Shown: positions 23,344-54,424 of the stretch, piece after piece
Position numbering within the stretch: the first letter of the stretch is position 1
Layout: every line of letters starts with the position of its first letter
NCBI RefSeq assembly: GCF_036588685.1
Contig: NC_086379.1
Span: forward strand, 75,950,001 to 76,014,000
DNA: 64,000 nucleotides
Reading direction: 5' to 3'
Source: Mytilus trossulus
Taxonomy: Eukaryota
The notes under the pieces: generated by a model
Databases searched by the model: none
Told to the model about the DNA's origin: nothing
The model's input: only the letters and a program-made list of their open reading frames with translations
Translations under genes and position numbers: made by a program

Positions 23344-26300
23344 TTACTGAGTAATCATAGCTGACAAAAGTCTTGAAGCTTTGACATTTTTGCCATACAG
23401 TGTACTAGTTGTACCATCAGCCAAATCTGTAAGGGTGTGTGTGACTCTATGCTGGTCAGGATATATGGTACTGGTTTCAACAATGACAGTACTGGCAAAT
23501 GCTGCTCTCTCATCCACTTTATTCTGAAAGAATGGGAAGTTGGATTATTGAAAAATGTGGACACACATAAATGTCTCTCTTGCCTAACTATTATTAATTT
23601 ATGACCAATAGTAATACAATTTTTTCAATTTTTTATTTTTGAAACCTTCACTAGTCTATTCTTCTACATACACTTATAATGTTTATTTCTGTTTTTACTT
23701 CATGTTTCCAAATATAATTGCTAACATTACATTATTATCCAGAATTTTAAACTTAAATAAAAGCCTGAAATGGGGATACAGTCAGAAAATTACACTGTTT
23801 TAAAATGCTATCTGATATACAGCATGAAATATCACACATGTATTTAAACATCTTGAGTACACTAAGATTACCAAGTTTGTTTATACCTTTAACTTCTGTT
23901 GATCTGTCTCTGAAGTCACTGCTATAATTCTTGGATAAGTGTCTTCATCAATTTCCTGTGAGTAGATTTTAGCATCTGAAATTATTACCATCATAAAATT
24001 TTAAAATCTGCACAACTGCCATATCTCTATGGCATATTTTTTTCTCTAAAAAATGGATTATAAACAAAAAAGTTGATTTCTTCATTTTTCACACTTATGT
24101 TTGGAATTAGCATTTTAGTTCAATTTCTATGGAAAACACATTTTCTTGTACATTTTTTATGAAAATCCATTCTACTTTTCATTATATTTAAATTTACCCA
24201 TGACAAAAGCTTCTGTGCTATTATTTTCAATCTGCTATATGAGTATCAATGTTGTAGGCCTAATGTTGACATCTAAATGTGTTTTTTTTGTTCTATGTGT
24301 CATAGGTTTTCTGTCTCGTTTATATATATCCTACAATTCTGTTTAGATACTGTATTATACTTTGAAACTCAGTCTGTTTTCAAAATATATCTTTCCACAT
24401 GAAATCTGCACAATTGAAATTTTGATTTTTTTACTACTATCATCATAATCAAATTTACAATATCTATGGTTTTTACTGGGCTACGAAACTAGTTATAATA
24501 CACTTTAAAGAGTTGACATGATTTAATACAATGTAAATGTTTGTCTCCAAAGAAAATGAACACACCTAAATCATATGATTTATGTAAATATGTATTAAGA
24601 AGTAAATTGATGATAGTTATCTACTCTTACCGCCTGATTCATTGTAACATTGTGGTACAGAATGGAAGGATGTATGCAGTTTCTTCAGCTGTTTATTTCT
24701 GGAGTTTTCCAACTTCATTGAATCTGAGCTTATATCACTATCATACTGTTTATGTTTGTAGTCTGGTTGCCTGGGAGTGTTCTGTCTGAAAAACTCTTCC
24801 CTTTTGCTGTAATTTGGGGTATAATTTGGGTTATAGCTATCATTGTATGATTGCCATTGTTGATTTTCTGATTGTTTACTAATTCTCTTTTTTTCTTTAC
24901 TATAGAAGTCATCTTTTAAAGAAGCCGATTTCTGTTTTATTTCAACAACTCTTTTGTCTTCTGATTTGTGGTACTGGTCCCTGAGTGGTTTAATATAATC
25001 TGGATGCTTTTTCTTTGAACTGGTACTTCTATATTCTGGGGGCTTATGACTTAATTTATGTGTATCGGGATTTATTTCATCATCAATATAGAACTCTTCT
25101 ACATCATACTGAAGTTTCTTTTTATTCTGTAACATAAAAATAAATATATACATGTATTGATTAGCACAAAGCTAGTATGTCTTAATGTTCAAATTGGAGA
25201 TCAGACCCTGAAGATCTGCTTGCTCCAACATATGTCATATGTTTTGTAAAAATTACTGTGATTGGCAAATGCAGTAACAGTTAAAATTGTTGGATCCTGA
25301 TTGATGAAGTTTAAAAAAAAATATCTTTGAGAATCTAAAGGACTGTGGTTAATCTATTTTGTTATTCTCAAAAACAAATACTAATTGAATAGATAAATGA
25401 TCAATATAATTTCAAAACTACAAATCTATAGATACAGAGAAAAACAGTACCTGGATTTTCTTTTTTGATTTTGGTTTCTTCTGAGATGTGCTTGGTGTAA
25501 TTCTCTCATCATCAAACAAAAGTGGACTCATGTTTTCTGAGAGAAAAAAAGTTGTTTGTATAACAAATTAGAATATTTTTAATAAAAAAAACAGTAAAAA
25601 ACTTCAATGTTGTCTCAAAAACTATTTGGTATTGACATTTGAATAAAATAAAAGATTTAAACTTGTTTATAAAAGCTATGCATTCAAGACCCTAATGCTT
25701 CTAGATTTCCCAATTATAATATTATAATCATTTACATTATATTTTTTAACCCTTTCGCTGATGAGTCCCGGTTTACCGGGATTCACGCTTCAGACTGCTG
25801 ACGATGAGTCCCATTTTACCAGGATCGGAATACCTCTTTTATATTTCCCGCTTAAAACAGTGCAAACATGAGTTATCTTTCTTTGATAAATACCAGGAAT
25901 GAAAGTGTAAACATGACGCTTCCGTTTGTTGAAAACCATGTCAAAATCAGAGGAAATTTACGGAATTTACAAGAATTTGAATTGAGGGAACATTTTATTT
26001 GAAAGAATATGGAAGAATAGAAGCCAAACTGGTATACTTTTTTGACATAAAATGTCGTTTTATGTACAAAACACTTGGAAAGGACATTGTTCAGAGTGAG
26101 GAATTTGTACAGCCTCATAAAAATTTTCAAAATTTTGCTGTTTTGGGTTAAAAAATTACGATGTGGGGTCAAAGACCAGAATTTTGAGAATTTCACCTAG
26201 ATAATGCCGAAAATTTGAAAATTTGAATATTTTATGAATTTTTTTTTTTACAAAACATAAACAAAACTGTGAACATGGTGTTAGTGAATAAAATAAATAC

Positions 26301-29300
26301 ACAAAAAACTACAAACAAGTTTTTATTGACATTTATTATGAAGATCTCCCACTTGAGTAAAAGTAGCCAGGGAAGCCATCGTCTCAGAGTAGCTTCTGTC
26401 TGGACAACAATCGGGGAAAGGGTTATTTTAAACATACTTTGTTACAAGATAAAGCAATAATTCAGAATATTAAAGTTTGCAATTAGCACATATGATGTAC
26501 AAACAAGACACATTATCACAAGAAATTTTCTTTACTCCTGCTCTTTTATCTATAAATTCCTCCTGCTATCCAAAAAGTTAAGTTTAAATTGTATTTATTC
26601 CTGAGTGTCAAAACATATCTAGTATTCTAATTCACTTTGAAAAACAAAATATTGTTCAACTTTGCAAATAAATACCTTGCTTCTTTTCATCTAATGCTTC
26701 AAAGACTTCTTGTGATAAAGTGCTTTGTATTCTAAACAATTCATTATCAATCCAGTCCGACACTTCATCAGAATCAGGACCACTAGAATCCTTTTTATCT
26801 ATGTAACAAAATTAAATATCTATTTAAGAAAATTTGAAAAGAAACAAGAGCAAATGGTGATGAAGTTAGATATTTTTCAATTCAACATAATCCAAGAAAC
26901 TGATCGTCAGTATATTAATGCTGCTGTCTTTAGTCGCAGGCACTTTCTCACTACTCTAAATGATACATTGAAGCCTTCAGAGTTTTTACCCCTCATTTTC
27001 TTTTGGATACATTTTGAGATTATCCATTCTTCTTTGAAAACTGTGATGGATTTACAGACACTCTAAACATCAATACAGAGGGGGGATAGGACCTTTATTG
27101 GGACTCCGGGATCAGGTTTTTTTAAGCTCAGGATTTGGGTATTGACCCTTTTGGGATCTGGGAATTCTTTTTTTTCAAATTTCGGGATTTTGTGTTTTTA
27201 AGCCTAGGATTTCAAGATCAGGACCCCTCCAATCCCCCTCATCAATACAAGATCCTGATTTTTATTTTAACATCAATATTGAATATTTTTAAAGATAAAG
27301 TTTGAAAAGTCCAAATAAGGGCAGCACTCACAAAAGTCTGACAATTTCATCACAGGAGAAGTCATCTACATTAAGCATGTCTAAACTATTTTTAGTATAC
27401 CAACCATTTATTTACTGAAGTGAGGTGCAGGATTAAATCAAGTCAATGTGATTTTTTAGAAAATACTACAAATCTACATTCCAATCAAATCAAAAATCTT
27501 TATTAAAGACCTCTTTATAATCTATTTATTATCTTGATTACCCTTGCACTCCTCAGGAGAAACTGTTGTAAGACTGCTGCAATTGGTTATTTCACATTCA
27601 TCAGATTGACGTCTAGGTTCTTTAGAAACTCTAAGTCCTAATGAAAATGCACATATAAATATTAAATCTTTTCAGTATCAATAAAATTGAAATGGAAATG
27701 GGGAATGTGTCAAAGAGACAACAACACAACAAAAGAGCAGAAAACAGAAATCTACTTTGTTTAAATTCACCATTTTTTTCTGAAGAAGTTATTAACCTTT
27801 TCCGTTGTTTCAGACATATGTTCAGACTTTATAAAGTTTTGGTAAAAACAAACATAAATTATGCAGAAATACTGATCTATTGAATGAAACATATATTGGG
27901 CTGTGACAAGTTATTTTGTGATGTTTGGTTGCTGTTTCCTTGCTTTTATCTCCACATCTCCTTAATTTATTTTAAATATGTCTAAAACTCAATTATTTTT
28001 TCTATATTACACAATATTCTATCAATTATATGGTACAATAACTCACAACTCAGCCATACTTTATAAAGAGTGGCTGTATAGTCTATAAGTTTGTTGTTGT
28101 TTTCCCATTTTCTTCCATTAAATGATATCAATGTGTAACACAAATTTAGATTTAGAAATGAAAATCAAAATTGAAGATACAGCATTGAAAAATCTATTTT
28201 TTTGTGCTCTCCTTTTTATAATTAGTTCCATAATAAAGGAGAAATAATCCCCCCCAAAAATGTGTTAAATCCAAACTATGGTTGGTTTAACAATTGTATT
28301 GGCTGTTTTTTTTCTATTTTATATATTGCATTAGATTGTTGTACACATGAAATAAAGTAATGACTTTACTGCTATATAGTGAATTACACAAATAATGTAC
28401 TACACAAAATGTTGCAATATACTTAATGGTGGTGCATGTAAAATCAAAATTGAAAACTTTATTTCATTTGTAAAACTATCTTTTGGCAATATACAAATAC
28501 AAAGAGAACTGCTAACACATTTCATTTTGGGTTTCTTTAATATGTAAGTATCTTTTGGCGGATAAAAATACCTTGATTGTTGCAGTTTTCTGGACTACAA
28601 CAAGGACTGATGTTCTGTATGTTAGGATAAATAGATTGAACCTGAAAATTAAATTTGTACGAAGAAGTTCTTGTCAACAGGTAGCAACCATTACATTGTT
28701 ATCCGCATGCAAACAACAAATTGTACCCTTCAAAAAAAGTTGCTCTTTATGTTACATTTATAGGCAAATCTTATGTTAATCAAGTTATCTGTATATTCCT
28801 CTAGATGATTTAGTTCAAACATTTCATTTTCCTAAATGCACAAAAAGAATACAACTTATGACACTTGTGCTATCTTCAATAGTAGTCCCATAAAAAAAAT
28901 CATATGTGCATCAAAATAAAACGACAAAAAGAAGGGTGAGCCCACAGACAAAAAAAAATAATGCCCCTTAGCTTAAGAAAACATAGTCTTCATTTTACCA
29001 GTAATGTTTTCCATATTGTTTCACCTAGATTAAAACAGTGCATGATGTATTGTGACATGTAGATAAAATACCTTACAGTTCAAAAATAAAACATTTCAAA
29101 TGGTGTACCTAACTAGAATAAAATATATGTTGTAAAAAGACTGATACTGACAAAGGCTATTTTGAAGTTAAAATACTTTTCTTTCACAACAATACTATTT
29201 AATATTTTTGATGTCTATTCTTTTTTATCATTATTCTTATTTTTTTTAAATAATCAATACTGCATACCTGATGATGAAGGCCGATATCAACAGTAGAAAG

Positions 29301-32300
29301 CTTTCCTTTGAGTAAATCTTGCTGAAATGAATGCTGCGGAAAATGAAAACATACCACTAAATTAATAATTTATCATCTTTAATGGAAGCTTTAATTTCAC
29401 TATAGCACTTATGAATATAAACATTGGATTTGTTGTTCAATAAGTTAAAATAGTAAACTGTCAGCTACAGTATAACAGCTCACTGATGATACCCCTGCTT
29501 TCTGTAAGGTCAATTGAAAAACACCTGCACCAGTCAAATTACAAATCTATGTTGTCCTTTAAATTGGTATATTAGCTTAGAAAATAGATAATTAGCCAGA
29601 ATATAACAGTTAAAACCAGTTTCATTTATGTTCTACCCATACTTTTGTCATTTTTGTTTAAACTGACATATGTTCAAAGTAAAACTATATATGACTCCAA
29701 CATCCTTGATGGCGGATCTCATTAATAGTTAAATTATTTGGGACAAAGTATCAAAAATTTCAAAAATTAAGTTTTCCTATAGACAATCATTATCCCTACC
29801 CGCAGATGGTGCTTCTATTATATCACTTCGTCAGAGAAGCCTGTTTAAGTTATTAATGGTTGACAAGGGCAAAAATTACACAATTACGTAAATCTTTCTG
29901 AAGTTATAATAGCAAAAACAAATAGAGGCTCCAAAGCCAAAGTCGTAATGCATTATCTTGTTAAAGGGTTGTTCAGAGATAAATGTACCTAGGTGTCCAA
30001 CACTTTTTTGTATACCCAACCACCATAAGTATGTGTTCAATTGTAACAGAATTGTTTTGCTTCCACCCCACAATACTTTTTGCTCCCTGGAAAAGCCCTT
30101 AATTAAATGGGAAAAATGAATAAAATGGGACAATAACAGATTCAACTAATCCACCTTTGTTCCCAGATTCTCTGTCATGGGAATTTACTCTTTGTTTTTT
30201 CAATTAATGCCAACTGCGCATGCTTGTCCTAAGAATTTGATAACTGTAATTTCAGCATTCAAAAAATATAAATTGGCATGCTCTGATTTTGTATACTGTT
30301 GAATAATAAAAAAAAGTTTAAATAAGTTGCCTACAATTTGTTTTCAGAGGCAAAAGTGAGACATATTTAATACCTCGTTGACCTGTTTCTGATATAAATT
30401 CACCAAATCTTTAACACTACCATTACCACCATACCAATCTTTAACTGAAGGACCAAGTCTACAAACAAAGGGTAATTTCATTCTTATTTCAATAGCTTTA
30501 ATATTTTAGCACCATTATTATTCAGATATAACAAAGACTGAAATTGTTGACAAAATCAAGCAGTCACTAAGAATCATGTTATAGAAATTAATGCCTTCAA
30601 GAATATTCAGATACAATTTTCACCAATTTTACTGGCATTTCAAGAAAACTGCTTTGACAAGACCTCAGACATTTTCATCACTATTTAATTTTGAAATAAC
30701 ATTCAAGATTGAAAAAACAAAATGACACCTACTCTGTATTTTCTGGTGTCTGAACAGACATTTTTTGCCTCTTTCTAGGCATTGTATTATATAATGGAGT
30801 TCTAGGATCTCGTGTAATTTTCTGTGGTGTCTGATAGTCCATGTTATAGAGAGCATACACACTGCCAGCAGTAGATAACTTCTTCTCAGGGGCACATTCT
30901 AACTTGGGATCTATACAGTGACTAGCAGGTTTGACACATTTACCAGGGGGACTCAAACATTGCTGCTGTACCTTCAGATAGCTGAACTTTGTAGCAAGGG
31001 ATCTGTTACCATGGTTAACATGCTCACTAGAAAGACAAAGAAGTGCATTTGAGGTTCCTTATATTTCTCAAATAGTTCAGTCAATCTAGCATAAATTTGA
31101 CCCTAACATTGAAGTAATTGCAACAGAAGGTTTTAAGTTTTAAACTTTAGCATTATACCCAAACTATACACTGAAAAAAATCCCATAAAATCTAACTTGA
31201 AGAAACTAAAAAATCATGATGTTAAAATCCCTATGGAGATTTGCATTGATATGGGAGATAACTCTGCAAAAAAAAAGGCAGAAATATCAATAAAATTAGA
31301 TTTAAAATTATAACATTAATGCCTCTATTCAACAAAATGTATTGATTCTTGAATTTTATCCATCTTTAGGGTATAACAAAGAACTCTAAAGGTGTTTTCC
31401 TATCTTTAATCAAGCTAAAACCTAGGTTTCATAATTCATAAGTTTACCATTTATTAGATATTTCAGCATGTCAAGGTAAAGAATCACAAATTGGATAAAA
31501 CTTATTAAGCATATATTCTTCTTTTAGTGGTCCAAAGTTTCTTCTAATAAGGTAGATGCTGAACAAAAATAATTAACAGATAAACAATACCAAATGTTCA
31601 CATTATTTTTACGAAATGGTCACCAAAAACTTAAAAATTCCCATAAGACTTCTATTTTATACATTTAATGAGCAGAATATTATATAATATAGTCAAATAC
31701 GAACTTGCAACCCCATCAAAGTATCATATTTTACATGAACTTTTAGAAAATCAACCAAAAACTGACCAAAAAAAAAGAAAAATTTTGCAGAGTTATCTCC
31801 CTGTCCAATGTTAATTTCCATAAGAACTTAAAAATGCAAAATTTGAATTTGCTCAAGTTAGATTTTATGGGACTTTTTTCTGTGTATATATGGGACTTAA
31901 GAAAATGTTTTGAACCTGACCTCCTTTTATTGCTTTAGTAAGTTCATCAGTATCATGCAATGAAAGATGGCAGAATTTTCAAGTGTTCAAGTCATAAGAA
32001 ACCTCAAATTAAAAAAAAATATGCATATGTTTTTTATAACTAAATGGATAGTTTTCATTATACCACTTATTTACATATACTTTTTTCTGATTTGTCCAAA
32101 TTTGTCCACATTTAGAAGAAGTTTACTTATTTTTAAGACATATTTTCGGTATGCATAGTGACCTGAGCGTAACCCTCCTCGTAAAAATCCTGTGATCGTA
32201 ACACATGGATCTGTCATTAAAATAAACAATTATCTGATTGTACATGTTAAACACATGCTCAATTCCCATGCTTTTAGTTATTTGTTTAATATAAGTTGAC

Positions 32301-35300
32301 AATCGGTAAACTTCGGCTTCAAAACATGGCATTTAATGAGCAGCCATATTTGTTAAATCATAACAGACAGAGAGAAAAAAAAATTGACGATTATACGATA
32401 TATTTGCATAAAAAATGAAAAAATCCTGCACAGAGGACTTTGTTTATGATAAGGGCTGTTCCAGAAAATACTATGTCCCCCCCCCCCCCCCCCCCCCCAG
32501 GGACGGCACTTTTTTTTAACCCCCACCACCCACAGAAATAAAATTTAATTAGAACAGCACTCCCTTTGCATTTTGTTATTTCAAATTACAACCACCCACA
32601 TAATATTTAAAAAAAATTGCCTTCCCTGGGGGGACATAGTATTTTCTGGAACAGCCCTAAATACATGAATTGGATAAACATCATTTTTCACCACTCACTC
32701 GTTTCATATGACTTTAATATCTCATTGTACCATACAAAATAAAAAAGTCTACCTGGATAGCACCAAGTACTTATATCGTCAAAGTGAGTGGAAAAGTATT
32801 ACAATGTGTTGAACTTTTTATTCATTATTGTTTTTTGCCCCATTGATATACACCCTACATCACCTTTTACTCATGTTAATGCAAAGTTTCTTGATTTTTT
32901 AAGAAAATTGTTAAACTTTTTTACCTGACAGAACTACCAGCCTCACTTTCACTCTGTTCTGATGGGGCAACAAACTTCTGTTCCTCCTCTCTTTCCAATG
33001 GGAGAGAGAACTTCTGTTCATCGTCTTTGTTTACTCTGACAGTGTAGTAGTAATCTTTTCCTTGTTGTTCTTCTTTCAATTCCCAGTCTAAACTGAAGTA
33101 ATAACAAACAGCATTTATATTTATCATTCAAAAGATTTTTAACAGTTCTTTATAATCATATAAAAGTTAAGTCATTTTATTTTAAAACAAATTTAAATTA
33201 TGAACATAATTGCATAGGATTGAAGATAATAATGCAAATATTTGAGCAAAATTGATAGCTTAATAGACACTCTTATAAATTGATATATGTTGTTGAAGAC
33301 AGTACATTGCTGTCTAGATGTCTTTTTTTAAGGTACATGGATGTCAAGCATTAGAAGTTCCTTGATGATATATTTTGTTACATATTTTCACTGGACAAAT
33401 ATTATAGTATTCTCTCTCAACAGAATAAAGGGTATAGAAAATTTATCCCAGCAGAAACATATATTATGAAATTGCTTATAACAAAGTTTCAAGGAGAGCA
33501 CATATACATTGACACAGTTGCTGCCTTGTTAACATTACACTTTACATACCTTTTAATTTGTATAAACCACTTGAATACAGATTTCAATATAAACACTAAA
33601 AATTAAAGCCTTAATAGATGATGCTTCAATCTCATATCACCACATAGACTCCATCATTGAAAATTGTTGTTTACCGTATAAATCGTTAAATAAGCCGCAG
33701 GTTTTTTTCTCTGTCTTTGTCCCTGCGTGTTATAGTCGGGTGCGTGTTATGTATGTATTATTTTCTGTTTTCAGGACGACGGTGAAAAAAAATTATCTGG
33801 ATTTGTTTTCTAGAGACAGTCAGATTGTCAAGTGCTTGCAGTGACTTGATAAATTGTTAATGTGGCATATTTTGTTATGAATAAATAAATATATTTACTA
33901 AATCGTTTGTTTTTATTTCATTCAATCACTCCAATCATTGTTGGTTTACAGGAAGTCGATAACCATGTGTTAGTGTTCATTTCGTAAACAAAGAAAGATA
34001 ACTGTGTCCATACAGGATATTAATTGTGTATTTATCATAAATATGTAGTTGTTAGTTGATTTAATGTGTTTTAATATAAAATTTTCTAATGAAATAATAA
34101 AGAAAGTGATTGTGTGGCTTGCCAATATTACAAGTTTCTTTAAATGACGATGGTGATGCATGTGCTTAAATCGACACTTTAAAGTGCTTCATAAACAAAG
34201 AGAGATAATCGTGTTTGAAAAGAGGTACCAAACAGGATAACCAGTTATCAAAAGTACCAGGATTATAATTTTATACGCCAGACGCGCGTTTCGTCTACAT
34301 AAGACTCATCAGTGACGCTCAGATCAAAATAGTTAAAAAGCCAAACAAATACAAAGTTGAAGAGCATTGAGGACCCAAAATTCCAAAAAGTTGTGAAGAG
34401 TAACTGTTTGTCGTTTTATTGTGTTTCAAAACGAAATATCTTTACGAAATATTATTGGATGTTTAACTAAAAAAAAAAGAATACTATTTTTTATAATTTA
34501 ATCTGTTAAAACATTTATTTATTGCCGTCTTATTTTGATTCCCCTTGTCATTGCTCATAACACTTTCATTTAAAAATAGACAATGACTTGCAAAAAGTAA
34601 ATTGTTTTGTTTGTGGTATTCATCCAAATTAAAATTGAAAAATGTTTGTTACTTTCAGAACTTCAACTTTTATTTTATAGACAACAATAAAATTCTTAAG
34701 ATTAATTTAATTAAAAAAAATCGACTTTTGGGTGAACAGTTTTCACACGTGGGTACAGGTAAGTAGGTCATAATCAAGGTAAACAATGGCAGTTTTATGG
34801 CTTGGGTGACCTTTCATGCATACATTTTTAAGATTAATTTAAATCCTTAATGCCAATTCAAACAATAAACAAGCAAGCAATACCATACTAATTTTAATCA
34901 AAACAACAAGGTTCAATGGACACCCAAACTGTCAACACATGGCCATTGTTGACAAAAAAACATCAAACGAAACTGGCATAATTAAAACAATGAGAAAAGT
35001 ATAATTATTTTATTACGATTTTTTATTTTAATATGACACAAATAAAAATATTCAAAAATACTCTCAACTTTCTCACCAATCTGAAAATAGAAATGAAACT
35101 AATTACGGTGTGAGTTACAAAAGGAGAAAATATTCATGACACTATCAGGTCAGTAGGATAAATATACGTTTTCTTCAGTGTGCGCTTAATATTCAGGTGC
35201 GTTTTATGTAAGGACAAAAACAATCTTCCCCCCTAAAAACGGCCGTGCGGCTTATAAAACGATGCGCTTTAAATTCGAAAATATACGGTACTTACTCTTT

Positions 35301-38300
35301 ATGATTGAATTTCATTCTGTCCACAAATCTTAATCTGTCATCCTGCAGATAATCAGGAGAAATGGGAAGTCTGTCATCCTGCAGATAATCAGGAGAAATG
35401 GGAAGTTTACTGGACTGGTTATTGTTGAACCTAAAACAAACACATCTCTACAACTTATTATGTCCAGACTTTAACTTGTTTAAGAACAAAAAAAATGTAT
35501 ATATATTGATTATATTGATGACAGATTGTTGATCTAAACATCAAAGATACATGTATGTTAGTGTGAGTAAACAGAAATTTGATGTTTTAATAGTAATGGT
35601 TTTCATCTTCCAATTTTCACAACCAGCCTAAACTATGTAAAATACAATTTCACAACTTGTCTGATGAGAAGCTATAATTCATAATGTTGCTGTTGTTGTA
35701 AAAGTGTAATTTTTACCACTTTTAAAAACAATTGTGTTTTTGGCAGAAAAAATATAGAAAAAGGAACAGGATATTTATCAAATTTTCCAGTGTGCTATCA
35801 CTTAATTATGAAAAATTTCATGATGATGAAGGTTTTACTTGGCACAGTTAATGATGTCTAAAAGTAATTTAGATTCAGATTCAGATTCAATTAAATAAAA
35901 CATATGTTAACTTAGTTGCAGAGTTAATTCTTTAACCATTGTGTTAACTATAATAAAGGGCTGCGCTTTAGCGCATGATACGCCTGTTGCTCTTTTAACT
36001 TGTCTTTTATGCTTTAAATGAATTTATATGATCAATTAGAAATAGGGTGAGCCCTGTCAAATACACCCCCCCCAAATAATAAATAAAAATGCACAAAAAA
36101 ATTGGCACTATTAAGGCTACCTCAAATCTAACTAAGTTTGTTGTCTTAATTTTTCATCCATACATAAAATTTTGTGAAAGTGTTAGTTATTGTCCCAAAA
36201 TTGGAAATATCCCCCCTTTTTTAAGCATAAAAATTCATAACATGGAAATGTAAAATCTGAAATTTATAAAAATTGAAAGGGAGCTTACATCAATAGATAT
36301 AAACAATTCACCAAAGTTTCATGGTCATTGGTGAAAGCCTTTTTGAGTTATTGTCCGAAGTGTTAAAAATCACCCTTTTTTTATGAATAAAGCCCCATAA
36401 ATCCAAAACTTTAAATCTGAAATTTATAAAAATTGAAAGGGAGCTTACATCAATAGATATAAACAATTTACCAAAGTTTCATGGACATTGGTGAAAGCCT
36501 TTTTGAGTTATTGTCCGAAGTGTTAAAAATCCCCCTTTTTTTATGAATAAAGCCCCATAAATCCAAAACCTAAAATCTGAAATTTATAAAAATTGAAAGG
36601 GAGCTTACATCAATAGATATAAACAATTCACCAAAGTTTCATGGTCATTGGTGAAAACCTTTTTGAGTTATTGTCCGAAGTGTTAAAAATCACCCTTTTT
36701 TTATGAATAAAGCCCCATAAATCCAAAACTTTAAATCTGAAATTTATAAAAAATGAAAGGGAGCTTACATCAATAGATATAAACAATTCACCAAAGTTTC
36801 ATTGACATTGGTGAAAGCCTTTTTGAGTTATTGTCCGAAGTGTTGAAAATCACCCCTTTTTATGAAAAAAGCCCCATTAATGCAAAACTTAAAATCTGAA
36901 ATTTAAAAAAAAACGAAAGGGAGCTTACGTCAATAGATATAAACAATTTACCGAAGTTTCATGGACATTGGTGAAAGCCTTTTTGAGTTATTGTCTGAAG
37001 TGTTGAAAATCCCCCCTTTTTTTCATGAATAAAGCCCCATAAATCCAAAACTCAAAATCTGAAATTAAAAAAAACAGAAAGGGAGCTTACGTCAATAGAT
37101 ATAAACAATTCACTTAAGTTTCATGGAAATTGGTGAAGGTGTTTTTGAGTTATTGTCCGAAGTGTGGACGACAGACGGACGGACAACGGTATACCATAAT
37201 ACGTCCCGTCCCGGGCGTATAAAAAGTAATACAATTTTAACAAATTTTAAGATGAACAAATATTTGAAAACTTTGTTCCAAAGATGTTTGGTAATTTTCT
37301 AGTATTTCTGAAAGTAATCTCATGTAAATTGGTTAGGGCTGTTCCAGTAAATACTATGTCCCCCTCCCCAGGGACTGCACTTTTTTTTAACCCCCACCAC
37401 CCACAGAAATAAAATTTAATTAGAACAGCACTCCCTTTGCATTTTGGTATTTCAAATACAACCACCTACATAATATTTAAAAAAATTGCCTTCCCTGGGG
37501 GGGACATAGTATTTTCTGGAACAGCCCTTATGAATTGCTTGATTCATTTAAAGGAAACACCGGGTTGACCTTAAAATCTAACCTCATTTCCTTGTGATGA
37601 GCATCTTCAAGCAATCTTCTGGGAGTAGATTCAGCTCTAGGTGATTTACTTATAGACCTGTCCTGTCTTCTAGGTGATGGGGAGTTAATGTTTCTTTGAT
37701 CCCTTGGTGTGTTACTTTGAGATGTTTCCCAGGTCTTTGGAGGTCTAGCAGGTTTGATAACAGTTTTTGAAGTTTTCTTTACTTCCTCAATGTTCAATAA
37801 ACTTTCCATATATTGTAATACATTCTACAAGCAAATAGTTTGTTGTTTGAAAAATAAAAACATGATTGATGGTTTTACCACCATCCATTAAGGAAAAAGC
37901 TTTAGTTTCGGTAATTAAATATTTAGCAAAGGGACTATAATCTTAAACATCACAGTCATTCTGTTAGCGATTAGAACAAATGTTTGTAGAAACAAATTAA
38001 TAGAGCACTAATGGTTTTGATATGCTATATAGATATGACTCTCAATATGTTGTCAGTATATCAAAGCATGTTTAAATGATCCAATATCTTATGAATTTGA
38101 CATATATACAAATACTTCATTTTATCAAGCTTTTTTACACACTAATGTGAGCTAGCATGAGCTATTGGTTCTAGTACATGCAGCCTGTGAGTTAATAGTA
38201 GAAAACTTCCCCTTTGTGGAGTGCAAATGATTGCATACAATCTGAGCTAGTTTATTTTAATATATCTGTATTATCTATGTTTCTATATTCAGTCTGAATA

Positions 38301-41300
38301 ACATAAAAAAAAACTTATTCACACTACAAGCTAAAAAGGTTAATAATGCATTAAAAGCTTCATGCCAAAACATTCCTTACAGGCCTAGAAAAAAATTATA
38401 TATTTTGCCATGCTTCTATTTTATATATACCATCCTTTTTGAAGCAAAGATGAAGACATATTTTACAAGAATAAAATCTAAGTTTATCCAAAAATAATAG
38501 ATTCTGGCGCACTGTTGCATTACATTGATTGGTCTAAAACAACCTGATTACCCTATATGAATAAATTTTGTAATAATTCATTTTGGTTATAAACCTCTTT
38601 ACTACACAAATTACATAGTCACCTGTTTAGGTATGGTGAGAATATTCCTGATATTATACATCTGTAATTTACGATGAAGTGGGTCTAATTGTAAGCAATG
38701 CTTTAAAATCAACATAAAAGCCTCTGGTATTCTGTCAGTCTCTATTTCTAACTGTTCTCTCTCCTTAAGTATTTTGTAATGAACAGTTTCTGTGTCTAAT
38801 TTACCCCAAGGAACTTCACCTGCAGAAGATTTAAAAGTAAGATTTAAGTCTAGTTGAGTGCTCCAAGGACATTAGTTTCAATATTCTTGACCATCAAATT
38901 AACTCAAACTCCTTTATTTGAATTAATAACATACATAATTAAAGAATGTCAAAACTTTCATAGAAAACAATGAACAGTGCATGTCAGAGTACATAATAAA
39001 TCATTATAAAGTATTCGAATAACAAATTTCTATTTTCCTTGGGTTGTGATTTCATGTCATAAAAATAACAAAATGTAAATCATTGATTCACCTGAATAAA
39101 AATATTTTTTACATTTTCATATTAATTTTCCTTTGCCACATTCTTGAAGAGCACTCTGCATAATATTCTATATAAATTAGTAGAATTCAAATTTTTAACT
39201 GTGTAAAACTCATTCAGACAGATGGACTAGAAAGAAACTAAACTAGTTTTCTCACAGAATAAACTTTCGATCAATTGTCAGCTTAATCTTACCATGAAAC
39301 ATTTCCCAAATGACCACAGCAAAACTATAGACATCTGAAGCCATTGAAGGAGAGCTTGCATTCATGATCTCTGGGGCCATCCAGTTGTAAGCCACATTTT
39401 GGTACATGTTCTGGTTCACAAAACTTTTAAGTCCAACATCTACTTTTTCACTGTTTCATAAAAAAAAATCAAAATCAATGATAAGTTACAGTAATTTTAG
39501 CTCTTAAACCAATTTTAACTTTTCTGTTAAATTGTGGGTTTTTTTTTATTTATTATCTGAACACTTAAATGTTGTTAGCTGACATTTGTTATTGATCTAC
39601 CATTCGGTCCCATCAGTATGATTAACATTGTCAACTAAACTCATTGTCATATATGTTGTACGTTTTTTACTGTTTTACCACATGCCAAGTTGTGCAATGA
39701 GTTTGCTAGCCTATTGAAATAAAAAAAAAAATCATGAAAAAAACCCATTGGTATTTAAATGTGGATTGTCTTGATGTTGCCATAGGGGATTCAGTGATGA
39801 CATTTTCAGAATTGCAAACTGTATTATTTGAGACTGCTCAAGTGTTAAATGAAAGACCAATAGGTACCAAGAACTGTGATCCGAATGAAGGGACATACCT
39901 ATGTCCGAATGATTTATTGCTCGGGAGAGCTAGTATTCGAGTTCCGAACGGACATTACAATCAGGATTGTAATCCAAGAAACTGTCATGCATTTATCCAG
40001 AACATAGTGAATTCATTTTGACGAAAGTGGATTCGTGATTATTTTCGTACATTGATTATAAGACAGAAGTGGCATACATTATATAGAAATCTCAAGAAAG
40101 GTGACTTGGTTTTGGTACAAGACAGCAATGCTTTGCGTGGAAAATGGAAACTGGGGCAGGTTGACGAGGCGATTCTGAGTCTTGATGGAAATGTTTGTGA
40201 TGTGACCGTGCGTTACAAAAACTTAGGTGGTAGTGGAACCCATTATCAAAATGTCACAGATAAAAAAAAATCGTCGTTCAGTGCACAGACTAGTCTTACT
40301 ACTTCCCGTTGAAGAACAAACAAATGTAACTGTTTAATCTGAAGTGTTCGTGGCGGGAGTGTATGGCAAGGCGATATAGTAATTTACGTTCTTTCCCCAA
40401 TACTAAATTTCCCCTGGAACAGAGAAATGTTGACATTAATTTGCTCAAGCTATTTACATATTGGAGCTCGTCAATGCATAAGTTTGTTTGAATAAAAGTG
40501 ACAATATACATCGGACAATACATGGCATACTATAGACCTATCATTCTGTTATGTTTATATCTTACAATGTAGTAAATGTGGTTTGTTCTTTATTTCAGGT
40601 TGAAACGTACATGATAATAAAACAATAAATGTTAAACAACCTGGCGTGTATTTCTTGAGTAAAACATCTACAAATTATTTCTGAATGGTAATACCTGATT
40701 GTTCAGTTCAAGGATAACTATTAATTCTCAATGTTAGCGTTTAACATTAAGCATTAAGATGTATTATCATTATCTTCCCTTTTTAACTTACCAGTCTACA
40801 ACATATTCAAAGTTGGCCAGTTTAGCACAATGTGGATTCACCAACATGATGGCATGTGATGTCACAAAACAATGGATAACATTCTGTTCATGCAGGAAAA
40901 CCAAGGCACTGCTGATCTGATATGTTATGTCATGAATATGGCTACTGGACAATCTTTCTAGCTAAAAAAGAAGTTAATCACAGTGAAAAAACTATTTCAA
41001 TTATTTTAAATCCAATGTAGACTCTTTATCAATAGCAGGAAATTCTTTAGAGTCTGTATCCCTGCCCTTGAATCTATAGCAATGCTAAATTAACAATGAA
41101 CACTGGCTAACCTTATTGAATCTATTGACTCAAGTTAATAACTAGCACCTTTGGCTATGCATGATAGAGGTGCAATATTTTTAGTCAATTGGATTGAAAG
41201 AGGAATTGAAGTAAAAGACCCTTCATCATTGCTGTTATCTGTGCCATTATCAGCATGCAAAGCTTTCTTAAAAATGTGTACAACATAGAAACAGTAGATA

Positions 41301-44300
41301 ACTGACCAATCAGGATAGAAAAATCTTTTGGTGGATACAATGTCATCAAATTGAAATAAAATAAGGTTTTTATGAACGACATTTAGAATATCGTTTTATT
41401 AGTATAATACTATTGCCAAGTCTAATTCACATGCCTCAGTTGTTTTAGTCTCTGGTAGATATTTGTATCATTGCCAATCATACCACATCTTCTTACTTTT
41501 AAGTGAATGCAAAATATCAGATTTTCAGTCGGTAAACAAAAGCATTGGTAAAACTTAATTTATATGAATAGCATTTTAATTTATATAGTTCTCTTGCAAA
41601 GAGGAAAACAAAATGATCTAATACAAAAAAAAAAAACATACCTTTTGATGAAGAACTTCATACAAGGAACCTTCGTCTATTCTTTCAAACAGTAACACCA
41701 TATTTTCTAAATTGTTGGTCTGACATACACCCATTAACATAAGAATATTGGGATGTCTTAGTTTACTGCAAGTAGAGAGCATAGATTGAAAATGTAATTA
41801 TACAAATTAACAATCATATCTGCTTAAAAGGTCATTTCCAATAAGAGAAACTGGACTTGACATGTTACTCTCTTCTTGTCGAACTGCTGTTATACATATG
41901 AATTTAAATGTCAAATAAACTGGCAAGCTCAATGTTCTCTGGTCTTTAAGATGACCTTTATGTGCAGGTTGACTCTAGTCTAATCTAACAAGTTGCTTAC
42001 CTAATAAACAAATTAAGTTTAATAGCTCACACCAAAATGTTTTAAGGAAAATGAAAAAAAAAAATGTGTTGGTTTGTCCTCCATTATTAAGTTAGTTTTC
42101 AATTACAAATTCTCATACAATTTAAAAGGCTAGAAGATTTGGTAAGAATTAAATGTTTACCCAATGTATTCAGCTTCTGTAATTAATAAATCTACTTCGC
42201 CACCAGGGGCAGCCTCTCTGTGTAATCTTTTAACTGTAATCTTTGTATTTTTCCATATCATACTGAAAATATGGTCAATTTAAAATACATTGTACACAAA
42301 AATGTTTAAAAAGTAAAAATTTGGTCTTTGTCTATATCAGGTGAATGCCATTCACCAGTTGTAAGAAGGCTTGAGGGCACAAAAATTCAGCAAAATTTCA
42401 AACATTTTTTTTCATTACAAATTGTATTTACAACAGTATTAGTTGTAACTTTATGCTATGATACAAAAATCAACCATAAAAATTGATTCGTTTTGGTCCC
42501 AGATGACTTTAAAAATGTTCATATCATTGAAAAAGCTCCAAATTATCTCCCTTTGGTGCAAAAATGCAATTCCTCGGCACTAAGATTGAAATACCTATTC
42601 AAAATCATTGGTGACCTATATATAAATTTGGCATTGGGAATGTTATGGAAACTATCTTGTAAGATGGCAAGAAATTTACATCAGTTTTGAGGTTTAAAGC
42701 ATTTTTTACATTTCTACTTGATCCATCCAGTGTTTTATTTTTATCTAAATGACCATTACTGACTTACCTTTCCATAACCATAAAAGCACCATTATTAAAT
42801 GACAGTCCATGGGAATCATGCTTCAGTAAATTCTCACTAACTAATGGCAAAGTACATATTATACCACTAAAACTGTCTCCATCTTGATATACCTATAAAG
42901 TACCAATATTAAAGCATTTTTAAACAACTTTATTTTGCATATAAGATTAAATTTCATAAAAGATTTCAAATGTCAAAACTTCATTTAGTGATCAGTTTTT
43001 GCTAAGGTCTATTCTAAAAGGATGATTATGGAGGTTGGAAGGCACTTTTGTTTTATGGTGATCACCCATACAATTGCATACATAACCCGACGACATGAAC
43101 TAAATGACCTGCCCCTTCCATACAAAATTATTAAAGTTACATCGGCCTTCCCATTTTTCTTTTTTTTTCTTGAATAGACCTAATGCAGCAGCAAATATAA
43201 TGGTGATAAGACCTAAAAATATAACTCCTGATATATAATATAACTTACTTTTCCAAATCCCATACTCTGACAACTTTTCATCTGATGATCTAAGTTCACA
43301 CTGCTGTATCCTGTGATTTTATCTCTTATCAATTTTATTACAGAACTTGTTCTGGAGGTAATTCTGAAAGGATAAACAATTCAGTTTTATGCTTTTCCTA
43401 TATTTAACAAAGTAAAACATATAGTTGGAAACACAATATGTTGTTGCTTTTAAGTTATAGCAAGGTGTTTTCTACCCTAACTGTTGAACTGTGCTTGGTT
43501 TTGTTCCCTTTTTGTATGGACTATGCTTTGTAGGGTTTAAATTATATTAATGTAAGTATAAGGATGATAATTGTTTAATGCATAATATATAACATACGTT
43601 GATCTAGGTTTTTTTTGTGTTCTTGGGTTGCTACCTCTCCAGGATACCCTAAATCCTTTGTTTATATTGGATTACAAGTATAATTTATATGAAGAAAATA
43701 AGAAAAAGTGAATTAACAGAAAATCTTACCAAACCCATCTAGCTTTAGAAATATAAACCTATAAACTTTTTCAATTTCACATGTTTGAGTACCATGTAAA
43801 TGCTTTTTTGTATGAATAGTGAAGACCAAACAGGGGAATATGAACAAAGCAAAACAAGGGTTTGGAAAATGTAATGTTTAGCTACCTGATAGATACTGGT
43901 TTTTTTTCAATCTGACAAATGTTGATCCTTTAACATATGACAGTTGTTCTCCATTCCTTTGATGAATTTTGTCAATTGATTTTGCCATTTGATTAGGGAC
44001 TTAACATTTGAATTTTACTCTTGGGTTCAGTATTTTTGTGATTTTACTTTTTAAACTATAAGCACTTAATAAGACAACAAAAGAGAATCCAATGTAAGGA
44101 ACTAGAAAAATGAGAGGTCAAAAAAGGTACATTATTGTGTTGGGCAAAGAAGCAAATGTCAGATAGTATTGATGCAAACAAAGCACTATATTTAACCCTT
44201 TCACAGATGAGTGACTGAGTGAGTCCCGGTTTACCCCTATTCACCCTTCAGACAGCTGACAGATGAGTCTCATTTCACCAGGATCGGAATACCTCTTTTA

Positions 44301-47077
44301 TATTTCCCTCTCGAAACAGTGCAAACATGAGTTATCTTTCTTTTTTGAATACCTGGATGAAAGTGTAAACATGGCGCTTCTGTTTGTTGAAAACCATGTA
44401 AAAATTTGAAATGAGGGTACATTTCTTTTAAAAGAATATGGAAAAATTGAAGCCAAACTAGTATACTTTTTTCACATAAAATGTCGTTTTATGTACAAAA
44501 CACTTGGAATGGACATCGTTCAATGTAAGGAATTTGTAGTCTCATTATAATTTCAAAATTTTGCTGTTTTGGGTTAAAAAATTACGATTTTGGGTCAAAG
44601 AACAGAATTCTTAAAATTTCACATAGATAATGCCAAAATTTTGAATATCTTATGTCAGAAGAAAAAATTATCAAAACATGAACAAACTGTGAATATGGTG
44701 TTAGTGAAAGAACATGATGAAATAAAGACACAAATAACTACAGGCAACTTTTTATTGACATTTATTACGAAGATCTCCCACTTGAGTAATAGTGGCCAGG
44801 GAAGCCATTGTCTCAGAGTAGCTTCTGTTTGGGCAGCTATCGGTGAAAGGGTTAAAGGGAGTTCAAATTTTGACATCCGGAAATCATTTTTGATAATTTA
44901 TCAAAAACATTACTTTTTTCTGCAAACTTAACACTGGGATTACATTTGAAAAATCATTCATATTAATTTTGCCTTGTAATCCTAGCACAAAAAGATGCTT
45001 TTGAAAATGTGTGATCTTTTAGTTAATAAAAACTGCATCATATGCTAAAGGAGCAGTTTTCTTCCAGAACTTGATTGTTTTACTATAATTGAAATCATTT
45101 AGGTTGAGGTCATTCATTCCTTTGACAATCAGTTTGACCTGTTTGAACTGTCATTGGACCAACAATACTTTCATTGCATTTAGAAAAATCTAGTGTCCTA
45201 CAACATAGCTACCTTGGTTCAACTGAGCATCTGAAATTTGACTATACTCCATCATATCTGAATTCTGTATATATCTACATCTTATTTGTTAATCTTACAA
45301 GGAACAACTTCTTATTTCTAGCATACCTATGGTTATGACGTGGTCCATTCAAAGAAGCTCTAAGATCCCTTCCTGACTTTGTCAAAGCAAAAAGTCTTGT
45401 CTTCTCTAAGAACTCCAACATTTTCATTCTTTTTTTCTGTTCTGGCTGTAGAAATGCAAATTCTTTAGATGATCTTCCAGTAGAATCATGCAACCTTAAA
45501 TCTCCACCAGCAGCTAACAGTTCATTCATTATGCTCAAATTACATGTGTATGCAACAACATGCACAGGTGTCATGCCATTGTTACTTCTCCTGTAATAAT
45601 AAGTAATACACACATACATTTGCATAAGACAACAAAAATGCATAAAAAAAAACATCAATATAATTTACCTTTTTCTTAAAACTTATTTTATATCTTACAA
45701 CTGAATTTCAGAAAAAAATTTGAGCTTTGTCCAACTGGAGACTAAGACAAGGTTGTAACCTTTTTAAAAAACAAAACTGACAAAAAGTCAGAAAATCTGG
45801 TCATTGACATTGTTTATAAATAAAAAATAAAGCAACTGACACCAAGTATTTGGAATGCTTCATGAATGTTTTTGTTATTTAAAAATCATATTAATAAAGT
45901 GCACTTTATGTAAATATGAGGGAAAGTAGATATTGGGTACATGTAGTTAACAAGTAATAAAATCATTTGGACATCCAGAGATTCACTAGGAAGATAAAAT
46001 TAAAGAAGAGCGAGTTTGTATAACAAGTCCATGTTTTAAAAGTTACAAGACAAGAGCTTCTTAACTTTTGGGACAGATGATCTGGTGTAAAAGTATACCC
46101 TAATTCTATTTAAGAAGGGCCTTTAAATTTCTAACATGTGTGTAACTGTTTGTGCATATTTGTACCCTGTTGGGCTAAGAATAAAGAGTATAGATTTTCA
46201 AAGTGGCAATTTAAATGTTTACAATATCTTTGATACTCATAAAGTCTTACTCATTAGGATTTGCTCCAAATTTCATAAGTTCTTTCAAAACAGCTTCTTC
46301 ATCTAAATAACATGCACAAAACAGAGGTGACTGTCCCAGACTATTTGGATAATCAACATGAATACCTGTAAATATAGTGACAAAAGTTTTATAATAACAG
46401 CTCGGTTAATTCTGTCTAATCATTACTGTAGATGGTTGAGTCTTTGATATCAAGGTGCTACAAAATGTCTTAAGGAACATTTTCCTTTCATTTCATATCC
46501 CATATATAAAAAGCCTTAAAGGTAAGTGAAAAATATTCTTTAAATGCTTAAATCAAATTCGTTTGGTACCTGGTGAATAGTTGTCTCATTGGCAATCATA
46601 CCACATCTCGTCACCAGGGTACTACTGTTACAACCCTGCCATACATTACCTCAACCAGTGCAGTATACCGTGATAAATCGAGGAGAATCATAAGCAATCA
46701 TTGTGAGAATATTTTATAAGAGTGTTTTTTTACTGAAAGCACTTTTGTAAACTCAGAGTACATGAAAAAATGCCTTTGCACATGCTATATTTTTTACAAT
46801 GTTTATTCCCATAGAAGGTATTAGTCGTGAAAAAATATTTATGATTGTAAGAAATACTGCTCCATTTGAGCCTTTTTATCTAGAAAACAATTTGTCACAT
46901 TCTGGTGGTATTTTGGATTTCTACTAATATAAATTCACATTATAATGCATATATACAAGTACCTTTGTCAATAATTTTTCTTAATCTTCTTTTATTTCCA
47001 TTTCTTGCAGCTTGATGAAAATCATAGCCCAATTTGTCGCCTGGTTCTACTGATCCAAGTTTAAGTATGCCCTCCAT
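23344..47077 (-). CDS. TEX14: TEX14-like protein: ankyrin repeats + inactive protein kinase domain + long low-complexity C-terminus; 23 coding exons, about 1200 aa
   Basis: Exons (minus): 47077-46963, 46365-46251, 45590-45327, 43363-43249, 42892-42768, 42262-42161, 41765-41642, 40961-40792, 39450-39293, 38819-38623, 37824-37583, 35430-35296, 33092-32925, 31026-30733, 30458-30374, 29321(or 29333)-29268, 28641-28572, 27637-27542, 26798-26676, 25536-25451, 25126-24631, 23975-23887, 23523-23344. All are GT-AG with matching phases and give a 3603-nt open frame ending MITQ*. TEX14-type motifs: NSLGQSPLFCA, GANPNER, GGDLRLHD, GFGK, ITVKRL, DLLITEAE, KLRHPNILMLMGVC, YNWMAPE, SDVYSF, EVPW. The N-terminal ten exons are well supported by homology; C-terminal exons rest on splice and phase consistency only. 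Confidence 0.88.
25750..26422. mobile_element. piggyBac-type MITE, copy 1
   Basis: TTAA|CCCTTTC...GAAAGGG|TTAT; homologous along its length to 44196-44851. Confidence 0.8.
27078..27240. mobile_element. MULE-type MITE with perfect 9-bp TSD
   Basis: GAGGGGG..CCCCCTC ends, internal (TTT)CGGGAT-like repeats, and TSD ATCAATACA (27069-27077 / 27241-27249). Confidence 0.75.
31165..31889. mobile_element. Old foldback/TIR element with imperfect inverted ends of about 110 bp
   Basis: TATACACTGAAAAAAATCCCATAAAATCTAACTTGA...GGGAGATAACTCTGCAAAA versus TTTTGCAGAGTTATCTCCC...TCAAGTTAGATTTTATGGGACTTTTTTCTGTGTATA. Confidence 0.65.
32453..32657. mobile_element. Kolobok-like MITE, copy 1
   Basis: TIR GGGCTGTTCCAGAAAATACTATGTCCCCCC with ATAA/TAAA flanks; near-identical copy at 37336-37527. 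Confidence 0.8.
33674..35288. mobile_element. Non-autonomous Tc1/mariner-superfamily (CCGTA-ended) element
   Basis: TA|CCGTATA...TATACGG|TA with subterminal TAAGCCGCA / TGCGGCTTA motifs. It contains a nested hammerhead-bearing fragment at about 34235-34395. Confidence 0.7.
34276..34317 (-). ncRNA. Type I hammerhead ribozyme (intact core) in a retrozyme/Penelope-type repeat fragment
   Basis: Minus strand: CGUCA CUGAUGA GUCU-UAUGU-AGAC GAAA CGCGCG UC^UGGCG. Stem I CGUCA/UGGCG, 4-bp stem II, minimal palindromic stem III, GUC cleavage triplet. Confidence 0.85.
35950..37225 (+). mobile_element. Helentron/HINE-like element carrying a 160-bp tandem array
   Basis: 5' hairpin TGCGCTTTAGCGCA, about 6 tandem units, (GGAC)n, and 3' hairpin ATACGTCC..GGGCGTAT followed by an A-run. 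Confidence 0.7.
36180..37165. repeat. Tandem array, unit about 160 bp, about 6 copies
   Basis: The ATCTGA anchor ends at 36260, 36420, 36580, 36740, 36899 and 37062. Confidence 0.95.
37336..37527. mobile_element. Kolobok-like MITE, copy 2
   Basis: Near-identical to 32453-32657. Confidence 0.8.
39757..40672 (+). mobile_element. 5'-truncated BEL/Pao LTR retrotransposon: integrase C-terminus + PPT + 3' LTR (40360-40672)
   Basis: MTFSELQTVLFETAQVLNERPIG...YLCPNDLLLGRAS...F*RKWIRDYF.TLIIRQKWH...NLKKGDLVLVQD...RGKWKLG.V is the typical BEL/Pao post-integrase region. PPT GGCGGGAG is followed by TGTA...TACA. A TGA interrupts 'FW' and there is a frameshift at the A-run near 40262. Antisense within a TEX14 intron. 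Confidence 0.88.
44196..44851. mobile_element. piggyBac-type MITE, copy 2
   Basis: TTAA|CCCTTTCAC...GTGAAAGGG|TTAA. Confidence 0.85.
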
Positions 47078-54382: not shown

Positions 54383-54424
54383 CACCAGATGCGCATTTCG
54401 ACAATACATGTCTCTTCAGTGATG
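54383..54424 (-). ncRNA. Type I hammerhead ribozyme (intact core) in a retrozyme/Penelope-type repeat (about 54351-54615)
   Basis: Minus strand: CAUCA CUGAAGA GACA-UGUAU-UGUC GAAA UGCGCA UC^UGGUG. Stems I, II and III all covary relative to the 34276 copy. Confidence 0.85.

What the first reader, a model, noticed from the sequence alone, without database searches (positions are those of the whole stretch)
34276..34317. Second intact hammerhead, sense in a TEX14-like intron, with compensatory covariation versus the 54-kb copy
Seen: stem I CGUCA/UGGCG versus CAUCA/UGGUG, stem II GUCU/AGAC versus GACA/UGUC, and stem III CGCGCG versus UGCGCA. All three helices change in sequence but keep pairing, and the catalytic nucleotides are fixed. 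This is direct evidence that two distinct repeat subfamilies were selected for the ribozyme fold. This copy sits inside a Tc/mariner-type element in intron 12, in the sense orientation.
Basis: partly seen in the sequence, partly recalled or inferred. Interest (0 to 1): 0.7.

Follow-up and report, generated by a model that had tools for sequence, protein, structure and literature searches.

The report
Stranded mussel retrozyme copy in intron
This is a short, near-new fragment of an abundant mussel repeat that carries a hammerhead (self-cutting RNA) motif, likely the repeat already published; it sits in a gene's intron, likely does little there, and was likely pasted in by the copying enzyme of Naiad jumping genes.

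Summary
The hammerhead is real (34275-34318, minus strand; Rfam Hammerhead_1 33.0 bits, cut-off 34). It lies sense in intron 12 of a TEX14-like gene of a Mytilus mussel, inside a non-autonomous TA-flanked DNA transposon. It is a 153-bp, 5'-truncated copy of a ~355-bp tandem repeat (17,984 exact-core matches genome-wide); the 54-kb copy belongs to a second family (5,144). This fits the published mussel retrozyme with two ribozyme families (PMC7229834). The covariation holds (4 compensatory pairs, 12 of 12 core bases fixed; simulated P about 1e-5), and a third family adds more. It reflects selection on the source lineages, not on this copy: unselected inserted copies lose core bases as fast as stem bases. 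Six sister transposons lack the insert, so it arrived later, with a 5-bp deletion and no target duplication. With one ribozyme it cannot release a unit-length circle. Copies end about 11 nt before a stem-loop shared with the start of Naiad retrotransposons, whose own copies end at the same point, so Naiad is the likely helper. This scan noted that link before on other DNA; I re-tested it and did not find it in print. Known element, ordinary copy.

The parts
34275..34318 (-). Type I hammerhead motif, family A; predicted cut after GUC, between 34281 and 34280
   Evidence: Rfam RF00163 33.0 bits, E 2.4e-4; pairing table
34243..34395 (-). 153-bp retrozyme fragment: positions 241-355 of the unit, the cut site, then 38 nt of the next unit; it stops just before the Naiad-type stem-loop
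   Evidence: 100% identical to array units on G000:C60 (L108-L125) and to L002
34241..34242 (-). 3' junction: two bases (GG) between the last family base and target DNA; 5 bp of target lost; no target-site duplication; 2-nt microhomology (CA) at the 5' junction, 34395-34394
   Evidence: Comparison with empty sister transposons; same 5-nt replacement in run contigs
33674..35288 (.). Non-autonomous DNA transposon (about 1.46 kb when empty) with imperfect terminal inverted repeats and TA on both sides; its end lies at intron position +8
   Evidence: 6 sister copies 95.5-97.7% identical, none with the retrozyme; longest ORF 72 codons
33093..35295 (-). Intron after coding exon 12 of the TEX14-like gene (2,203 nt, GT-AG); predicted cut 1,015 nt from the donor and 1,188 nt from the acceptor
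23347..47077 (-). TEX14-like gene (ankyrin repeats plus kinase-like domain), 23 coding exons
54353..54614 (-). Family B retrozyme fragment (262 bp; hammerhead 54382-54425), ending 35 nt past its cut site
10197..10498 (+). Older family A copy with a damaged core (G5 and G12 changed)

Best explanation
This is a 153-bp, 5'-truncated copy of an abundant mussel hammerhead repeat (likely the published non-LTR retrozyme) that inserted into a pre-existing DNA transposon in intron 12, was likely copied from a circular or multi-unit RNA by a Naiad reverse transcriptase, and is likely neutral for the gene. Shown: the motif, the families, the order of insertion, the junctions, the fixed 3' end, the sequence shared with Naiad. 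From the literature: tandem arrays are transcribed, self-cleave once per unit and are ligated to circles. Inferred: the enzyme recognises a stem-loop that begins about 45 nt past the cut site, starts cDNA about 11 nt upstream of its GUCGAUG, crosses the cut junction and stops at random; here it stopped after 153 nt. Lineages must self-cleave to make new templates, so source lineages keep the fold (the covariation) while inserted copies decay freely. This copy is intact because it is young. It lacks a second ribozyme and the stem-loop, so it can neither release a unit nor, likely, be copied again. In pre-mRNA it may cut slowly, mostly too late to stop splicing.
For: Tandem units of 354-359 and 350-352 bp, 38% GC; 17,984 family A and 5,144 family B exact-core matches, reversed-pattern control 0. 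Published mussel repeats are 350-390 bp with two ribozyme families and kobs about 0.1 per min (PMC7229834). Six of six full sister transposons lack the insert. The fragment is identical to array units, while the host transposon differs from its sisters by about 3%. In 800 kb of unselected DNA, 30 of 40 family A/B insertions end within 14 nt before to 3 nt after the stem-loop start; after dropping 5 rows that share flanks, 25 of 35, with 21 of 35 in a 10-nt window; 5' ends scatter. The stem-loop core lies at the start of 11 published Naiad consensus sequences. Naiads in this genome carry it: 9 of 13 fetched loci have an ORF of 1,056-1,060 codons, with GIY-YIG N-terminal, and 10 of the 13 show a free 3' end 0-6 nt from the same point. 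Naiad and retrozyme stems differ by three compensatory pairs in the outer helix. Core decay equals stem decay in inserted copies. About 0.09 sense intact copies are expected in a 24-kb gene (6 insertions with the core pattern in 800 kb). Introns cut by a slower hammerhead were still spliced in mammalian cells (as described in PMC2995048).
Against: No direct sequence comparison with the published mussel elements was possible (supplement unreadable; no sequence found in PMC4918200 supplements). No cleavage, circle or reverse-transcription assay was run. ViennaRNA does not favour the hammerhead fold in this copy's context (stem I pairing probability at most 0.04, stem II 0.1-0.27), so even slow cleavage is uncertain. 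The shared stem-loop could reflect descent from Naiad while another Penelope-like enzyme does the copying. The Pfam RT match in the Naiad ORF is below cut-off (E 0.045). The Naiad loci were chosen for carrying the motif. A copy that spans the cut site could also come from an uncleaved linear transcript. The spliced contigs may come from animals without this insertion. A deletion without duplication is also what break repair leaves.
Confidence: 0.75

Rival explanations
1. The intronic hammerhead is functional in cis: it cuts the TEX14-like pre-mRNA and lowers or reshapes expression, possibly helped by pairing through its self-complementary helix III with abundant retrozyme RNA.
For: Intact core, sense orientation, about 1.2 kb before the acceptor. 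A cloned mussel unit self-cleaves at about 0.1 per min (PMC7229834). Helix III 8-mers are self-complementary in all three families, and the tetraloop changes GCGC to CCGG in family C, a change that keeps pairing only between two molecules. Retrozymes are under-represented in Xenopus introns (bioRxiv 10.64898/2026.07.22.740005).
Against: The insertion is very recent and absent from all six sister transposons. Such placements are expected by chance. The fold is not favoured in context. Slower hammerheads did not block splicing in mammalian cells (PMC2995048 passages).
Confidence: 0.1
2. The compensatory changes arose without selection on RNA function, by template switching that repairs imperfect hairpins during DNA replication or reverse transcription, followed by amplification of a few masters.
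For: Only two or three lineages are compared. Each change is one event. Stems II and III are local hairpins.
Against: The single-stranded core (12 of 12) is also fixed while 77 of 296 aligned positions outside the motif differ. Family C shares the core although its unit is otherwise different. Within inserted copies only 2 changed pairs are compensatory against 63 that are not.
Confidence: 0.05
3. The fragment was captured at a double-strand break or copied by another enzyme (a hammerhead-bearing Penelope or Neptune element, or a LINE), and Naiad is not the helper.
For: 5-bp target loss, microhomology and no duplication. Xenopus retrozymes resemble the pseudo-LTRs of other Penelope-like elements. 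Family C spreads without the stem-loop.
Against: Random capture does not give a fixed 3' end (21 of 35 in 10 nt, binomial P about 4e-24). The end point matches Naiad's own, next to a shared structured motif.
Confidence: 0.1

Closest known systems
Non-LTR retrozymes of Mytilus galloprovincialis (Cervera and de la Pena 2020, PMC7229834; parts 1-4 of 6 read, supplement unreadable)
   Same: Mussel, type I hammerhead, tandem units of 350-364 bp, GC under 45%, two related ribozyme families, short helix III, no coding capacity.
   Different: This locus is a solitary sub-unit fragment. The paper counts about 5,000 motifs; this assembly holds about 29,000 loose-core matches and a third, ~570-bp family (727 matches). 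The text read names no fixed 3' end and no specific helper beyond 'PLEs'.
Naiad Penelope-like retroelements (Craig et al. 2021, PMC8557442; passages and parts of supplementary file 1 seen)
   Same: Shared 5' stem-loop motif, partial-tandem structure, variable 5' truncation, 3' end just before the motif.
   Different: Naiads encode GIY-YIG plus RT and lack canonical hammerheads; the retrozyme has the ribozyme and no ORF.
Vertebrate retrozymes as non-autonomous Penelope-like sequences (bioRxiv 10.64898/2026.07.22.740005; parts 1-3 of 5 read)
   Same: Proposes that retrozymes use Penelope-like machinery; notes solo monomers that cannot transpose.
   Different: Links Xenopus retrozymes to pseudo-LTRs; no mollusc analysed (0 occurrences of mussel, Mytilus, bivalve, mollusc, hairpin); no Naiad start signal.
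Conserved intronic hammerheads of amniotes (cited in PMC7229834 and PMC7761336; details recalled, not read)
   Same: Single hammerhead, sense, in an intron.
   Different: Those are few-copy and conserved across species; this one is a recent copy of a family with tens of thousands of members, with no evidence of conservation at the locus.
Tc1/mariner-type non-autonomous elements (MITE-like; the likeness of the CCGTA end to Tc2/pogo is recalled, not tested)
   Same: TA on both sides, terminal inverted repeats, dispersed near-identical copies.
   Different: No transposase in the element, so the family cannot be fixed from it; it is only the landing site, not the carrier.

Membership tests
Type I hammerhead ribozyme | Conserved core CUGANGA / GAAA / UH | tested here: met
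   12 of 12 core positions; Rfam alignment
Type I hammerhead ribozyme | Three helices with helix I open | tested here: met
   6 + 4 + 2 bp, covarying
Type I hammerhead ribozyme | Rfam RF00163 gathering score (34 bits) | tested here: not met
   33.0 bits, E 2.4e-4; the 54-kb copy is not listed
Type I hammerhead ribozyme | Fold favoured in its own sequence context | tested here: inconclusive
   Low pairing probabilities in ViennaRNA, which does not model the core
Type I hammerhead ribozyme | Self-cleavage | not testable with these tools
   A cloned mussel unit cleaves at about 0.1 per min in PMC7229834
Metazoan non-LTR retrozyme (family level) | Tandem 150-450 bp units, one hammerhead each, GC under 50%, non-coding | tested here: met
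Metazoan non-LTR retrozyme (family level) | Sequence identity with the published mussel clones (MN642551-76) | not testable with these tools
   Supplement unreadable; no sequence found
Metazoan non-LTR retrozyme (family level) | Expressed as linear and circular RNA | tested here: inconclusive
   Run contigs cover the repeat deeply and continue into family sequence, but contigs show neither strand nor circle and RNA status is a guess
Active retrozyme (this locus) | At least two ribozymes in tandem | tested here: not met
   One ribozyme, 0.43 unit
Metazoan non-LTR retrozyme (this locus) | Target-site duplication (described as optional) | tested here: not met
   5-bp deletion instead
Naiad-dependent non-autonomous element | Shares the Naiad terminal motif and end point | tested here: met
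   (family level; this fragment stops before the motif)
Naiad-dependent non-autonomous element | Mobilised in trans by Naiad protein | not testable with these tools
   Needs an assay
Tc1/mariner-type element (host) | TA target duplication and terminal inverted repeats | tested here: met
Tc1/mariner-type element (host) | DD(E/D) transposase | tested here: not met
   Longest ORF 72 codons; an autonomous partner was not sought
Conserved (domesticated) intronic hammerhead | Conserved at the orthologous locus across species | not tested
   No relative genomes held; the recent insertion argues against it

The most novel reading that the evidence does not exclude
Mussel retrozymes are a two-module parasite: a hammerhead that makes the RNA circle plus a stem-loop taken from ribozyme-free Naiad retrotransposons that sets where the Naiad enzyme starts copying, about 11 nt upstream. 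This names the helper and the initiation signal for an animal circular-RNA retroelement and points to how Naiads start reverse transcription.
Probability: 0.6. Interest if true: 0.6.

Novelty: already known. Interest (0 to 1): 0.3.

Why it matters
The locus itself matters little: it is one of tens of thousands of copies. It is useful as a clean record of one insertion, because six empty sister transposons give the pre-insertion sequence. The family-level point is worth more. The helper that spreads animal retrozymes is an open question in the papers read, and the shared stem-loop with a matching end point makes it testable. The many young, sense, intronic copies also offer a natural test of whether slow hammerheads harm host pre-mRNA.

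Tried and rejected
Rfam scan: only the 34-kb copy scored, just under the cut-off. Folding did not recover the hammerhead as the best structure. Retrozyme carried as transposon cargo: rejected, 0 of 6 sisters have it (L062 was lost from the multiple alignment by a script anchor but is empty in the BLAST table). Target-site duplication: none. Run search: no holder on record as RNA, so depth is not used as evidence. Whether the insertion is polymorphic could not be told from contigs. In one search the family C row was sliced one base off and the A2 reference held an insertion; family C was redone, and 3' ends were not affected, but 5' positions of A2 rows are not comparable. Eight family C rows were set aside from the 48 insertions before the end count. 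Three A2-type rows scored against the A1 reference read -11 or -12 and probably end later. The first two genome searches included the 3' end and are biased, so end counts use unselected DNA. PMC3365414 gave nothing relevant. Searches for a printed Naiad-retrozyme link: 'Naiad + retrozyme' (two papers) and 'Naiad + Penelope-like + non-autonomous + hammerhead' (one paper); neither text as read reports it. Subscription papers and the unread supplements of PMC7229834 and the preprint could hold it.

Full report
Observation. The motif reads on the minus strand from 34318 to 34275. Rfam scores it as Hammerhead_1 at 33.0 bits (cut-off 34, E 2.4e-4) and does not list the 54-kb copy, which nevertheless has the full core. 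The two 44-nt motifs differ at 12 positions: four compensatory pairs, one G-U to G-C, N7 and two loop II bases; all 12 core positions agree. Helix III is 2 bp with a GCGC loop, not 3 bp. A third, damaged copy lies at 10197-10498.

Gene context. Homologues with ankyrin and kinase domains from Mytilus, one named TEX14/SGK307 by its source, match the exon at 45.5 kb at 96-100%. tblastn maps 23 coding exons on the minus strand; the intron 33093-35295 follows the twelfth. Contigs of four runs guessed to be RNA, from four studies, join across it with GT-AG ends. The motif is therefore sense and in intron 12. Those animals may not carry the insertion.

What the repeat is. Genome searches return near-identical copies in tandem at 354-359 bp (family A) and 350-352 bp (family B), 69% identical to each other and 38% GC. 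Exact-core patterns count 17,984 A, 5,144 B and 727 of a third family C; a looser A/B pattern counts 29,067; reversed-pattern controls give 0. In 800 kb of unselected DNA there are 48 insertions. Cervera and de la Pena (PMC7229834, parts 1-4 of 6 read) describe about 5,000 type I hammerheads in two similar families in 350-390-bp mussel repeats, kobs about 0.1 per min, abundant circles and ligation by RtcB. I could not compare sequences directly, so identity with that element is inferred from organism, size and organisation.

This copy. It covers unit positions 241-355 and 1-38, 153 bp, identical to units of an array on G000:C60. It sits in a TA-flanked inverted-repeat element without an ORF. 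Six sisters at 95.5-97.7% identity all lack it. The empty site shows a 5-bp loss, a 2-nt microhomology at the 5' junction, two extra bases at the 3' junction and no duplication. Five other terminal copies continue with the same GGTTA, so TTA may be a 3' microhomology; those were found with a query that held it. The transposon came first and the retrozyme later and recently. With one ribozyme and 0.43 unit it cannot release a monomer.

What the covariation shows. Placing 12 substitutions at random left the core intact in 1.6% of trials, all pairs in 0.25%, both in 0.001%, and gave four or more compensatory pairs in 0.005% (400,000 trials). Adding family C gives six pairs changed on both sides and 69 of 70 cells paired across five sequences, with slid controls far lower; relatedness inflates the shuffle control. 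In contrast, 31 unselected family A insertions show core mismatches at 49 of 367 and stem mismatches at 65 of 679; 8 keep the core; 63 changed pairs are not compensatory and 2 are. Dropping four rows that share flanks gives 40 of 319 against 54 of 591 (P 0.11) and 7 of 27 intact. So the fold is kept in lineages that reproduce and lost in copies that merely sit.

How it likely got there. All three window copies end 34-45 nt past the cut site. In unselected DNA 30 of 40 A/B insertions, or 25 of 35 independent ones, end between 14 nt before and 3 nt after the start of a GC-rich segment, while 5' ends scatter; loci picked on the core alone mostly show the same. Earlier notes of this scan suggested the segment is shared with Naiad elements, and I tested that. 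In the supplement of PMC8557442, 11 of 12 occurrences of CTGCTGGTGG lie at the start of Naiad consensus sequences, including two from Mytilus; I did not count how many Naiads lack it. In this genome 9 of 13 loci fetched on a Naiad-type motif have a 1,056-1,060-codon ORF, with GIY-YIG at residues 183-273 and a weak RT match further on. Ten of the 13 show a free 3' end, all 0-6 nt from a point 11 nt before GTCGATG; the other three run on in tandem beyond the stretch. Retrozyme ends cluster 7-13 nt before the same word. Both fold into the same two-helix stem-loop; the outer helix has three compensatory changes. Copies cross the cut site and are often longer than one unit, which fits a circular or uncleaved multi-unit template. 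The inference is Naiad-driven copying that starts just upstream of the stem-loop. It is untested biochemically. This fragment stops before the stem-loop, so it is likely a dead end.

Effect on the gene. The cut would fall 1,015 nt after the donor and 1,188 nt before the acceptor. A half-life of about 7 min (from the published rate) is long against the time to transcribe 1.2 kb. PMC2995048 (passages only) reports that introns cut by a slower hammerhead were still spliced whereas a fast HDV ribozyme blocked splicing; I did not read the two primary papers. Equilibrium folding does not favour the active form here. Six insertions in 800 kb match the core pattern, so about one 24-kb gene in ten would hold a sense copy by chance. 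A small cost cannot be excluded; a preprint reports intron depletion in Xenopus.

Novelty. The element class, the mussel example and two families are in print. A general link to Penelope-like elements is proposed in PMC7229834, PMC7761336 and PMC8557442 (passages) and in a 2026 preprint without molluscs. The Naiad stem-loop and common end point were not found in two literature searches, but this scan had already noted them at other loci of this genome. Verdict: a real but ordinary copy of a known element; interest 0.3, resting mostly on the family-level helper hypothesis.

Noticed in passing
G000:C1:1504984-1505593 (L307); G000:C3:20193668-20194283: A third hammerhead repeat family, unit about 570 bp, 727 exact-core matches. 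Its core is like family B but helix III has a CCGG loop. It lacks the Naiad motif, and 9 of 15 aligned segments end at unit position 374-376, mostly before a TA run.
   Followed up: partly
window 54353-54614 (-): The family B copy lies about 350 nt past the stop codon of a p25-alpha (TPPP) exon (54963) and upstream of a similar exon at 52761-53042, in sense. It may be in a 3' UTR of one isoform, where cutting would matter more than in an intron.
   Followed up: no
window 35288-35295 (-): The DNA transposon inserted at the TA at intron positions +6/+7, immediately after the splice donor GTAAGT, leaving the donor intact.
   Followed up: partly
all three families, helix III: The 8-mers ACGCGCGU, AUGCGCAU and AUCCGGAU are each self-complementary; the loop change keeps pairing only in a two-molecule (dimeric) hammerhead.
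   Followed up: partly
window 36185-37168: 160-bp tandem array, about 5.7 copies, in intron 11 of the same gene.
   Followed up: no
window 35334-35406: Exact 36-bp duplication inside coding exon 12 (12 codons); homologue P0001 has it, P0003 and P0004 do not, and run contigs show both forms.
   Followed up: no
window 39710-40312 (+): Decayed retrotransposon integrase / DUF5641 remnant in intron 8.
   Followed up: no
L064 (G000:C13:39930464 onward): One sister transposon carries a different ~420-bp insertion about 15 bp from the retrozyme site.
   Followed up: no
G000:C12:27544285-27545100: Seven copies of the Naiad start motif at 131-bp spacing, a possible mini-element array.
   Followed up: no
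L300 (G000:C9:47285600-47293400): A family A retrozyme begins right at the 3' end of an intact Naiad; one case, possibly a template switch or chance.
   Followed up: no
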